A DNA stretch of 64,000 bases from a virus. The stretch lies in IMG/VR virus record IMGVR_UViG_3300045988_183940; one strand, given 5' to 3'. The position numbers were made by a program, and so were the translations under genes. Shown here one piece after another: positions 31,485 to 31,604 of the stretch (its first letter is position 1; the number at the start of each line of letters is the position of its first letter). A model generated the notes under the pieces. It did no database searches and was not told the DNA's origin. It saw only the letters and a program-made list of their open reading frames with translations.

Positions 31485-31604
31485 GGCAAGGTAACTCAAT
31501 CGGTAGAGCATAAATAAGCTCCACAAAACTGTGGAGACTCAGCATTAATTTTTTATCTTTGACTTTTAACCCGTAAGTTGCAGGTTCGACTCCTGCCCTT
31601 GCCG
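31485..31604 (+). ncRNA. tRNA-like / Y-RNA-like (YrlA-type) RNA 2
   Basis: Acceptor GGCAAGG/CCTTGCC. D-arm ACTC-AATCGGTA-GAGC. T-arm GCAGG-TTCGACT-CCTGC. About 70 nt, including a 7-bp hairpin CTCCACA/TGTGGAG, lie between the D-arm and T-arm where the anticodon arm should be. Confidence 0.5.

What the first reader, a model, noticed from the sequence alone, without database searches (positions are those of the whole stretch)
31485..31604. tRNA-like RNA 2 has a 44-nt substitution in place of the anticodon arm
Acceptor (GGCAAGG/CCTTGCC), D-arm (ACTC-AATCGGTA-GAGC) and T-arm (GCAGG-TTCGACT-CCTGC) are all present. Between the D-arm and T-arm lie about 70 nt instead of about 22. This stretch includes a perfect 7-bp hairpin CTCCACA-AAAAC-TGTGGAG and an AT-rich tract. 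That matches the architecture described for YrlA Y RNAs, where the Ro-binding module replaces the anticodon arm. It is too short to be a group I intron.
Basis: seen in the sequence. Interest (0 to 1): 0.7.

Follow-up and report, generated by a model that had tools for sequence, protein, structure and literature searches.

The report
Phage tRNA-shaped Y-like RNA
This is a real, conserved tRNA-shaped non-coding RNA in a gut phage: a conserved hairpin-plus-CAGCAUA tag sits where the anticodon arm should be, and the gene lies just upstream of a Ro60-like protein gene, so it is most likely a new kind of Y RNA.

Summary
Window 31485-31604 scores as tRNA (Rfam 41.4 bits), with acceptor, D and T arms. 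Seventy nt lie between the D and T arms, including a perfect 7-bp hairpin whose loop is AAAC, not AAAAC.

The insert is not random. Hairpin + 3-5 nt + CAGCAUA recurs in 38 distinct copies from related phages. All lie on the coding strand upstream of the same gene. The hairpin is 99% paired, and five of six pairs show compensatory changes.

In 146 distant homologous loci, CAGCA(A/U)A next to a closing stem is 13-fold enriched on that strand. Some of those RNAs are YrlA-like permuted tRNA mimics.

Element 2 is therefore best read as a Y-like RNA in native tRNA order. It is not a YrlA member: it scores below threshold, lacks GNCGAA and has an open acceptor stem. Protein binding is inferred, not shown. 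I rate it a new variant of a known kind.

The parts
31314..31342 (+). Sigma-70-type promoter TTGACA-17-TATAAT with a TG extension. It would start transcription a few bases before element 1.
   Evidence: The only 12/12 consensus match in 31000-32000. An equivalent promoter sits in the same place in L001, L002, L003, L005 and L209-L210.
31351..31462 (+). Element 1. A 9-bp acceptor-like stem (GCGTGGGAG/CTCCCACGC) and a T-arm (GCGG-TTCGAGT-CCGC, 31435-49), with no D-arm. It carries the module: hairpin GTCCGCA-ACAC-TGTGGAC (31365-82), spacer ATCA, then CAGCATA (31387-93).
   Evidence: Sequence. Fold z-score -4.8. Module model R1 scores 42 bits at 31359-402.
31485..31604 (+). Element 2, the finding: a tRNA-like RNA in native tRNA order. 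Acceptor 31485-91/31597-603; D-arm 31494-509; T-arm 31580-96; discriminator G 31604.
   Evidence: Rfam tRNA 41.4 bits. Structure counts on 12 homologues: acceptor 7/7 pairs, hairpin 5/7 and T-stem 2/5 changed on both sides, 98.1% paired. RNAalifold independently recovers the acceptor, hairpin and T-arm.
31519..31546 (+). Module of element 2: hairpin CTCCACA-AAAC-TGTGGAG (31519-36), spacer ACT, then CAGCATT (31540-46). A U-rich tract follows (31547-62). This is the proposed protein-binding tag.
   Evidence: R1 scores 45.4 bits. 38 distinct copies are 99.1% paired, with 5/6 pairs changed on both sides; 0/500 shuffles reach the covariation score. C, G, C and U of C-W-G-C-A-U are invariant. Close relatives change the 5' strand only to wobble pairs (CTCCGCA, CTCTGCA).
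31563..31579 (+). Remnant of the anticodon arm, CUUUUAA-CCCGU (a loop like tRNA-Lys(UUU) plus the 3' stem strand), followed by the variable loop AAGTT.
   Evidence: Sequence. Paralogues keep U33 and A37 with other triplets: AUGAUAA, CUUAUAC. Stem pairing is not maintained: 59.6% paired, no better than slid controls.
31613..31688 (+). Element 3: a tRNA-like RNA with a 5-bp 'anticodon' stem and a 6-nt loop (GATTCA). It has no module.
   Evidence: Rfam tRNA 39.5 bits. ARAGORN calls it tRNA-??? with a 2-base anticodon. In close relatives the loop varies (AATTAA) while the stem is kept.
31723..31753 (+). Intrinsic terminator-like hairpin between the RNAs and the protein gene. Its 5' strand (TGCTGTGAT, 31727-35) is the exact complement of ATCACAGCA in element 1's motif.
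   Evidence: Terminator scan. Complementarity test: 9 nt, matched or exceeded by 2/300 shuffles. The analogous complement is 9-11 nt in the L002/L003/L209/L210 loci (11 nt in L003, L209 and L210) and 9 nt in the L007 clade.
31786..33168 (+). Gene for a 460-aa DUF2828/DUF7788 protein: a Ro60-like helical ring plus a vWA domain with an invariant MIDAS signature (D283-x-S285-x-S287, T350, D375). This is the proposed protein partner.
33759..34907 (+). RtcB RNA ligase gene, on the same strand, 0.6 kb past the Ro60-like gene.
   Evidence: Pfam RtcB 3.2e-68. RtcB or another RNA ligase is also near the homologous gene in L003 and L007.

Best explanation
Element 2 is a phage-encoded Y-like RNA built on a tRNA scaffold.

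**Shown.**
- A strong promoter precedes three tandem tRNA-like elements.
- Element 2 has a 7-bp acceptor stem, a D-arm and a T-arm with the tertiary-contact bases intact.
- In the anticodon-arm position it carries a module: a 6-8-bp hairpin with a small A/C-rich loop, 3-5 nt of spacer, the near-invariant CAGCAUA, then a U-rich tract.
- The module occurs in several scaffolds: a full tRNA shape, acceptor plus T-arm only, or a plain stem.
- Every significant module hit lies on the coding strand just upstream of a gene for a Ro60-fold protein.

**Inferred.**
- The precursor is cut by RNase P and 3'-end enzymes into separate RNAs of about 75-120 nt (elements 1 and 2 about 112-120 nt, element 3 about 76 nt), and these receive CCA.
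- The hairpin-CAGCAUA tag docks on the Ro60-like protein, as the conserved stem of a Y RNA docks on Ro60.
- The tRNA-shaped body gives stability and serves as the handle for a second partner: a tRNA-binding enzyme, an exonuclease, RtcB, or a host tRNA-cutting toxin.
- The resulting particle acts in tRNA/RNA repair or quality control, or in counter-defence, during infection.

**Layout.** Element 2 is the circular permutation of the YrlA-type RNAs found next to distant homologues. There the RNA ends lie in the tagged stem and the acceptor is a closed hairpin. Here the tagged stem is capped by AAAC and the acceptor is open.
For: 1. **The element is a well-formed tRNA mimic.** Rfam tRNA scores 41.4 bits. 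Across 12 homologues 98% of cells are paired, and 15 of 23 pairs changed on both sides.
2. **The insert is under selection.** There are 38 distinct module copies, 99.1% paired, with 5/6 pairs compensated. The stems differ (TCCACA/TGTGGA, AAGTCA/TGACTT, GTAGTTA/TAACTAC), while the loop and CAGCAUA stay conserved.
3. **The link to one gene is exclusive.** Every significant module hit (27-57 bits, E <= 2.3e-4) in about 940 kb of loci lies on the + strand, 0.1-1.1 kb upstream of the DUF2828 gene. Other neighbours change: the helicase, dUTPase, actin-like gene and RNA ligases come and go.
4. **That gene's product has the Ro60 fold over both domains**.
5. **The motif goes with the protein family far beyond this clade.** In 146 loci with at most 40% identity, CAGCA[AT]A occurs 52 times in the 350 nt upstream on the coding strand, against 4 times on the opposite strand and 0.13/kb in the CDS. 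It typically comes 2-4 nt after the 5' strand of a closing stem.
6. **Some of those RNAs are YrlA-like permuted tRNA mimics.** L138 1347-1451 aligns to the full YrlA model at 37.8 bits; L285 scores 33.7 bits.
7. **Precedent exists.**
   - Y RNAs with tRNA-like domains are encoded next to Ro60, sometimes in phages. M. smegmatis YrlA is cut by RNase P and receives CCA (PMC4201824).
   - Thermus phage phiLo Ro60 binds two RNAs encoded upstream of its gene (PMC12135203).
   - Bas63 gp130 is a Ro60-like protein that lies beside tRNA genes and counters the Ppl defence system (10.1101/2024.10.10.617714).
   - Homologues of the window's protein in Felixounavirus phages such as adrianh sit in the same position beside a tRNA array. 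That gp130 belongs to this DUF2828 family was not tested here.
Against: - There is no expression or binding data. The protein-RNA link rests on synteny and co-conservation only.
- The protein shows no TROVE sequence similarity.
- The RNA lacks the Ro60-binding motif GNCGAA, so how it would be recognised is unknown.
- Element 3 lacks the module, so the cluster is not uniform.
- The motif has a complement in the downstream terminator in three clades. That fits a cis-regulatory role at least as well.
- The covariation comes from only about 5 independent lineages, and the 38-copy alignment was fitted to the model.
Confidence: 0.6

Rival explanations
1. The array is mainly a cis-acting leader that sets expression of the Ro60-like gene. 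The CAGCAUA motif pairs with the 5' strand of the downstream terminator and prevents termination. When the protein binds the motif, the terminator forms. This would be autoregulation by substrate mimicry. The tRNA shapes would be processing or stability devices.
For: - The RNAs, the terminator and the gene lie on the same strand in one apparent transcription unit.
- A 9-11-nt exact complement of the motif lies 59-81 nt before the start codon in three clades.
- Shuffles match or exceed it in 0-9 of 300 trials.
- The complement follows the local variant: CAGCAUAA pairs with UUAUGCUG, and CUGCAUAA with UUAUGCAG.
Against: - The complement is absent in L005, L211-L214 and (except as a wobble version) L132.
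- In the window it matches element 1, not element 2.
- Three to five copies of a tRNA-shaped RNA with RNase P-type acceptor stems, and an encoded ACCA in L002/L003, point to excised stable RNAs.
- This is compatible with the main explanation rather than exclusive of it.
Confidence: 0.12
2. The RNA is a decoy or sponge for host tRNA-targeting defence nucleases. It acts on its own, independently of the neighbouring protein. It keeps the tRNA body and a tRNA-Lys-like anticodon loop sequence, but cutting it does no harm.
For: - CUUUUAA with U33 and A37 is kept in element 2 and in paralogues. L211/L213 carry a perfect 5-bp stem with a CUUUUAA loop after the module.
- RtcB lies nearby.
- A competitive-inhibitor role was proposed for the YrlA tRNA domain (PMC7790460).
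- From my own knowledge, tRNA-Lys is the classical target of anticodon nucleases.
Against: - The anticodon stem is not maintained, and most anticodon nucleases need a proper stem-loop.
- The hypothesis does not explain the conserved hairpin-CAGCAUA.
- It does not explain the module's presence in scaffolds with no tRNA features (L002/L003 element 1, the L005 clade).
- It does not explain the strict linkage to the DUF2828 gene.
Confidence: 0.1
3. It is a real decoding tRNA. Either it carries an extra arm, or its insert is removed as an intron and the halves are rejoined by the phage RtcB.
For: - RtcB is a tRNA-splicing ligase in archaea and animals, and one is encoded nearby.
- Paralogues L003_E2 and L002_E2 have 4 of 5 anticodon-stem pairs with Ile-type loops.
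- L002/L003 element 2 ends in ACCA.
- An unrelated long tRNA with an insert in the anticodon loop exists in L153.
Against: - In the window only 2 of 5 anticodon-stem pairs can form, and the stem is not supported across homologues.
- Removing the insert would leave no 5' stem strand.
- No bulge-helix-bulge motif is visible.
- The insert is more conserved than a spliced-out spacer should be, and it also occurs outside tRNA scaffolds.
- ARAGORN does not call it.
Confidence: 0.05
4. It is a decayed pseudo-tRNA that picked up a random insertion.
For: The anticodon stem is lost, and ARAGORN fails to call the element.
Against: The hairpin, loop and CAGCAUA of the insert are conserved with compensatory changes across clades and in paralogous copies.
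Confidence: 0.02

Closest known systems
YrlA (Rfam RF02553), the bacterial Y RNA with a tRNA-like domain
   Same: - It is a tRNA mimic with conserved D and T arms.
- The protein-binding module projects from the anticodon-stem position and there is no working anticodon loop.
- It is encoded next to the gene for its ring-shaped protein, often with RtcB (PMC4201824; 10.1101/312249; PMC7790460).
   Different: - YrlA is circularly permuted, with its ends in the Ro60-binding stem and a closed acceptor. Element 2 has open tRNA ends and a capped module hairpin.
- The motif is CAGCAUA, not GNCGAA(N)G.
- The YrlA model does not reach threshold.
- The partner is a DUF2828 protein, not a TROVE-domain Ro60.
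[quoted passage not shown]
   Same: It has a 7-bp acceptor stem that is an RNase P substrate, which gives free tRNA-like ends on a Y RNA (PMC4201824).
   Different: There the open acceptor results from cutting a permuted precursor into two pieces. Here a single RNA is encoded in normal tRNA order.
Thermus phage phiLo Ro60 with Yrl1/Yrl2 (PDB 9L5Y/9KOP)
   Different: Yrl1 and Yrl2 are stem-bulge-stem RNAs with CGAA motifs. The paper's text contains no occurrence of 'tRNA-like'. The protein is annotated as TROVE.
Bas63 gp130 and the Felixounavirus 'vWFA protein' beside the tRNA array
   Same: - The Felixounavirus 'vWFA protein' of phage adrianh is a distant homologue of the window's protein (26-27% identity).
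- It sits on the same strand as a neighbouring tRNA array.
- The authors of the Bas63 study speculated that some neighbouring tRNA genes are Y RNAs (10.1101/2024.10.10.617714). I did not test whether gp130 itself belongs to this family.
   Different: No specific RNA or motif was identified there. In adrianh the neighbours are ordinary tRNAs lying downstream of the gene.
Deinococcus radiodurans Yrn1
   Same: It is a Y RNA that can be drawn with T- and D-like arms and an 'anticodon' stem-loop with a 6-nt loop (PMC4201824). This resembles element 3 (31613-88).
   Different: Yrn1 binds a true Ro60 (Rsr) through the conserved helix. Element 3 has no recognisable binding module.

Membership tests
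tRNA (RF00005) | Score at or above the curated threshold of the covariance model | tested here: met
   41.4 bits against a gathering score of 29, covering model positions 1-71.
tRNA (RF00005) | 7-bp acceptor stem, D-arm and T-arm with the conserved tertiary bases | tested here: met
   Read from the sequence. The helices are kept with compensatory changes in homologues.
tRNA (RF00005) | Anticodon arm: a 5-bp stem with a 7-nt loop, directly after position 26 | tested here: not met
   A 61-nt insert occupies this position. Only 2 of 5 pairs are possible around CUUUUAA. The stem is 59.6% paired across homologues, no better than controls. ARAGORN makes no call.
YrlA (RF02553) | Score at or above the curated threshold | tested here: not met
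   The best hit is 30.9 bits against a gathering score of 69, at 31572-31646. It joins the T-arm of element 2 to the D-arm of element 3.
YrlA (RF02553) | Permuted order (T-arm, closed acceptor hairpin, D-arm) with the RNA ends in the protein-binding stem | tested here: not met
   Element 2 has the native order D-arm ... T-arm with an open acceptor. The permuted order is seen in distant loci L138 and L285.
YrlA (RF02553) | Ro60-binding motif GNCGAA(N0-1)G in the conserved stem (PMC4201824) | tested here: not met
   There is no + strand match between 31300 and 31786. The only match in that interval lies on the - strand, inside the T-loop.
YrlA (RF02553) | Encoded next to a Ro60 (TROVE) gene | tested here: inconclusive
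Y RNA in the functional sense | Stable small RNA bound by the Ro60-type protein | not testable with these tools
   This needs RNA-seq or Northern blots and protein pull-down. Here there is only synteny and co-conservation.
Intron-containing tRNA (group I or bulge-helix-bulge type) | The insert interrupts an otherwise complete anticodon arm and carries the intron's own fold or splice motif | tested here: not met
   The insert is 61 nt. From my own knowledge, group I introns exceed 200 nt. Rfam finds no intron family. The flanks cannot form an anticodon stem. The same insert occurs in non-tRNA scaffolds.

The most novel reading that the evidence does not exclude
DUF2828 proteins, found in hundreds of sequenced phages, would be a sister family of Ro60 with their own class of Y RNAs. 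That class is defined by a helix followed by 2-5 nt and CAGCA(A/U)A.

In this gut phage lineage the Y RNA has returned to native tRNA topology. It would then be matured by RNase P and the CCA-adding enzyme. It would display a tRNA-Lys-type anticodon loop sequence.

It would act as a decoy or sensor for host anticodon nucleases, bringing the Ro60-like ring and the phage RtcB to damaged tRNAs. The same tag would pair with the downstream terminator and so feed back on synthesis of the protein.
Probability: 0.2. Interest if true: 0.85.

Novelty: new variant of a known kind. Interest (0 to 1): 0.66.

Why it matters
- **An unassigned phage protein family gets candidate RNA partners.** Ro60 and Y RNAs are studied mainly in animals and a few bacteria. 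DUF2828 'RNA-binding/vWFA' proteins occur in 640 of 50,697 phage records, and I found no RNA partner reported for them in the literature searched. A Ro60-like Felixounavirus protein, Bas63 gp130, was recently reported to counter a defence system.
- **It gives something concrete to test.** It supplies candidate partner RNAs, a short sequence-and-structure tag that could be the recognition element, and a natural series of scaffolds: plain stem, permuted tRNA and native tRNA.
- **It would show a second recognition code.** If confirmed, the Y RNA idea of a ring protein tethered to a tRNA mimic would have evolved or diversified with a different code, and would be widespread in phages. That makes the long-open question of what the tRNA-like domain is for experimentally approachable.
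- **It affects annotation.** tRNA finders either miss these genes or may call them tRNAs.

Tried and rejected
- **DNA search against phage records.** blastn of the locus found nothing.
- **Single-protein search of IMG/VR.** It found no relative. A 46-sequence alignment was needed.
- **Loose DNA pattern.** None of these showed the family's conserved hairpin loop or tRNA-like context, and three weak look-alikes (L028, L104, L114) were judged chance or coding.
- **YrlA membership.** The partial hit is an artefact of tandem tRNA-likes.
- **Sequence-level link to Ro60.** There is no TROVE Pfam hit, and a profile of the family finds no Ro60 among PDB sequences. The relation is visible only at the fold level.
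- **A retained anticodon stem-loop.** I tested it and it is not supported: 59.6% paired, and slid controls do as well.
- **Further structure in the 3' half of the insert.** Single-sequence folds and RNAalifold give nothing consistent.
- **The hairpin as a minus-strand terminator.** The terminator scan flags it. I rejected this because the conserved CAGCAUA and the tRNA arms are strand-specific, and no conserved gene ends there.
- **Literature on DUF2828.** The search returned five papers, four on plants and one on a tardigrade genome; none concerns phages or RNA binding.
- **Host identification from reference genomes.** Only relatives of 37% identity or less turned up, mostly in Bacillota metagenome-assembled genomes.

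Full report
**1. The observation**

Rfam's tRNA model matches window 31485-31604 (+) at 41.4 bits (gathering score 29). It treats 61 nt as an insertion where the anticodon arm belongs.

The sequence reads as follows:
- acceptor GGCAAGG/CCTTGCC;
- D-arm ACTC-AATCGGTA-GAGC;
- T-arm GCAGG-TTCGACT-CCTGC;
- the usual tertiary bases (U8, A14, G18G19, A21, TTCGA, A15:U48);
- 70 nt between the D and T arms;
- a perfect 7-bp hairpin CTCCACA-AAAC-TGTGGAG at 31519-36.

The loop is AAAC, not AAAAC. The net excess is about 48 nt, not 44. And CUUUUAA-CCCGU (31563-74) survives just before the variable loop. It looks like the anticodon loop and 3' stem strand of a tRNA-Lys.

ARAGORN does not call the element. 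The RNA folds better than all 200 shuffles (z -3.5). No ORF of 50 aa or more lies on the + strand between 31289 and 31786.

**2. Surroundings**

The element is the second of three.
- A perfect TTGACA-17-TATAAT promoter sits at 31314-42.
- Element 1 (31351-31462) has a 9-bp acceptor-like stem and a T-arm.
- Element 2 is the finding.
- Element 3 (31613-88) is tRNA-like with a 6-nt 'anticodon' loop; ARAGORN calls it tRNA-???.
- A terminator-like hairpin follows at 31723-53.

Next comes a 460-aa ORF (31786-33168) that matches Pfam DUF7788, with weaker sub-threshold matches to DUF2828 and VWA_2, and PHROG 850 'RNA-binding protein'. A small membrane ORF and RtcB (33759-34907) follow. A DinG-type helicase lies upstream.

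**3. The neighbouring protein has the Ro60 fold**
- An AlphaFold model built from 46 homologues has pLDDT 86.8.
- All 11 Foldseek matches against the PDB with E <= 0.001 are Ro60.
- The MIDAS signature DxSxS...T...D is invariant in the family.
- At sequence level nothing links it to TROVE.
- Homologues occur in 640 phage records: Felixounavirus, mycobacteriophages, and Listeria, Staphylococcus, Enterococcus, Bacillus, Vibrio and Campylobacter phages. The nearest are the Lak megaphages at 36%.

**4. The insert is conserved and structured**

I fetched loci that encode close and intermediate homologues of the protein: 95-99%, 61-62%, 55-58% and 46-48% identical.

All loci examined down to 46% identity have structured RNAs directly upstream of the gene on the same strand. 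In the clades at 55% or more, each RNA carries the same module: a hairpin, 3-5 nt, then CAGCAUA (sometimes CUGCAUA or CAGCCUA) and a U-rich tract.

The hairpin sequence differs between lineages while pairing is kept. Examples are TCCACA/TGTGGA, TCCGCA/TGTGGA, AAGTCA/TGACTT, GTAGTTA/TAACTAC and GTAGTCA/TGATTAC. The loop stays AAAC, ACAC, CAAC or AACA.

| Test | Result |
|---|---|
| 12 full-length tRNA-like homologues | 98.1% of cells paired; 15 of 23 pairs changed on both sides (acceptor 7/7, hairpin 5/7) |
| Same, controls | Shuffled mean 76% paired; slid versions at most 45% |
| 38 distinct module copies | 99.1% paired; 5 of 6 pairs compensated; 0/500 shuffles reach the covariation score |

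Among relatives with 95-99% protein identity, the hairpin's 5' strand changes only to wobble pairs (CTCCGCA, CTCTGCA).

Two caveats apply. The changes come from about five lineages. The 38-copy alignment was fitted to the model.

**5. Association with the gene**

A covariance model of the module was searched over the window and 178 loci, about 940 kb in all. It gives 27-57-bit hits only on the + strand, 0.1-1.1 kb upstream of the DUF2828 gene. In the 64-kb window there are just two hits, in elements 1 and 2. The next best scores 17 bits.

The other neighbours vary between clades: helicase, dUTPase, an actin-like gene, WDGH, RtcB or an Rnl-type ligase.

The module sits in different scaffolds:
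- a full tRNA shape (element 2; elements 2 and 3 of L002/L003);
- acceptor plus T-arm only (window element 1);
- a plain long stem (L002/L003 element 1; the L005 clade).

The module is therefore the common functional unit, and the tRNA body is an optional chassis.

**6. The wider family**

In the 46-48% clade, two of the three elements put ACAGCAUAA directly after the 5' strand of a long closing stem. The third has a hairpin followed by ACUGCAUAA.

In 146 loci with at most 40% protein identity:
- CAGCA[AT]A occurs 52 times in the 350 nt upstream on the coding strand;
- it occurs 4 times on the opposite strand of the same regions;
- its density in the coding sequence is 0.13/kb.

There are 34 distinct contexts. 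Nearly all read 'stem 5' strand, 2-4 nt, CAGCAAA, large loop, stem 3' strand'.

Some of these RNAs contain a T-arm, a closed acceptor hairpin and a D-arm, in that order. L138 1347-1451 aligns to the whole YrlA model at 37.8 bits and L285 scores 33.7 bits. Both are below the 69-bit threshold.

Many distant homologues also sit inside arrays of ordinary tRNA genes on the same strand.

Closing the terminal stem of such a permuted RNA with a loop and opening its acceptor hairpin gives exactly element 2's order: D-arm, capped stem, NNN-CAGCAUU, T-arm.

**7. What it most likely does**

*Shown.* The element is a conserved tRNA-shaped RNA gene with a conserved tag, tied to a Ro60-fold gene and close to RtcB.

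*Inferred.*
- It is matured like a tRNA.
- The tag docks on the Ro60-like protein.
- The tRNA body recruits or mimics something that handles tRNA.

This parallels three known cases:
- YrlA and Rsr in the Salmonella rsr-yrlBA-rtcBA operon, which responds to tRNA damage (PMC7790460; 10.1101/312249);
- phage phiLo Ro60 and its upstream Yrl RNAs (PMC12135203);
- the Ro60-like Bas63 gp130, which counters the Ppl defence system (10.1101/2024.10.10.617714).

I put 0.6 on 'Y-like partner RNA of the DUF2828 protein'.

**8. Rivals**
- **Cis-regulatory leader.** The motif of element 1 (ATCACAGCA) is the exact complement of the terminator's 5' strand. The analogous complement is 9-11 nt in the L002/L003/L209/L210 loci (11 nt in L003, L209 and L210) and 9 nt in the L007 clade. 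It is missing in others. This may coexist with the main reading.
- **Free-standing nuclease decoy.** The Lys-type loop sequence suggests it. The unmaintained stem and the tag's presence in non-tRNA scaffolds weaken it.
- **Decoding or spliced tRNA.** Unlikely, for the same reasons.
- **Pseudo-tRNA with a random insert.** Excluded by the conservation.

**9. Comparison and novelty**

Element 2 works like YrlA but is not a member of that family. It scores below threshold, is not permuted, lacks GNCGAA, and has a different protein family as neighbour.

Rfam 15 has no family for these RNAs beyond the generic tRNA hit. The literature searches found only a speculation that tRNA genes next to a Ro60-like phage protein might be Y RNAs.

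I rate it a new variant of a known kind.

**10. Source**

Close relatives come from metagenome assemblies; the only source label seen reads 'human gut metagenome', on a distant relative. Distant relatives are binned mostly with Bacillota genomes. The promoter and Shine-Dalgarno sequences fit a Bacillota host. This last point is inference.

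Noticed in passing
window 31727-31735 versus 31383-31391; also L003/L209/L210 at -67, L002 at -64, and L007/L129-131/L133/L142 at -79 from the start codon: The 5' strand of the terminator hairpin before the Ro60-like gene is the exact complement of the CAGCAUA-motif region of one upstream element (9-11 nt). The complement follows the local motif variant (CAG or CUG). This suggests a switch between terminator and antiterminator, possibly set by the protein. It is absent in L005, L132 and L211-L214.
   Followed up: partly
window 31563-31574; L002/L003/L209/L210 element 3; L211 and L213 last element: Anticodon-loop-like 7-mers with U33 and A37 are kept next to the 3' stem strand: CUUUUAA, AUGAUAA and CUUAUAC. 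L211/L213 have a perfect 5-bp stem with a CUUUUAA loop after the module. The elements look derived from tRNA-Lys and tRNA-Ile. Whether the loop is still used is unknown.
   Followed up: partly
window 31613-31688: Element 3 is a tRNA-like RNA with a 6-nt 'anticodon' loop and no module. In close relatives the loop changes (GATTCA to AATTAA) and the acceptor shows G-C to A-U changes. Its role in the cluster is unexplained.
   Followed up: partly
L138 1347-1451; L285 434-501: YrlA-like permuted tRNA mimics lie upstream of distant DUF2828 genes, scoring below threshold (37.8 and 33.7 bits). In L138 the position of YrlA's GGCGAAUGC reads ACGCAAUGC, and CAGCAAA lies about 10 nt further 5', next to an outer stem AUGGAC/GUCCAU.
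   Followed up: partly
L158, L161, L193, L208, L147, L144, L155; L299 (Escherichia phage adrianh): In many distant phages the DUF2828 gene sits inside or beside long arrays of ordinary tRNA genes on the same strand, up to 25 in 6 kb.
   Followed up: partly
L230-L235, L245, L005: between the module RNA and the DUF2828 gene: This clade has further apparently structured non-coding stretches. One is enclosed by a stem GCCTGCAA...TTGCAGGC. After a second promoter there are one to three copies of a unit of about 150 nt that begins AAAGTAAAGTTGTGGACATAAAATGTCC. None matched Rfam.
   Followed up: no
L153 1203-1342: A 140-nt tRNA hit (56.5 bits) has about 66 extra nt inside the anticodon loop region (CTTGA-CTGTATA...TCAAG). 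It may be a short intron in a phage tRNA-Tyr-like gene. It has no CAGCA motif.
   Followed up: no
window 48351-48421 (-) and 48462-48553 (-): Two more tRNA genes lie on the minus strand. The first is found only by Rfam (43.7 bits) and not by ARAGORN. The second is tRNA-Ser(TGA).
   Followed up: no
window 30088-31289: A run of four or five small overlapping ORFs that look hydrophobic and membrane-like, with no family match, lies directly upstream of the RNA cluster. Similar small ORFs occupy this position in L001 and L002.
   Followed up: no
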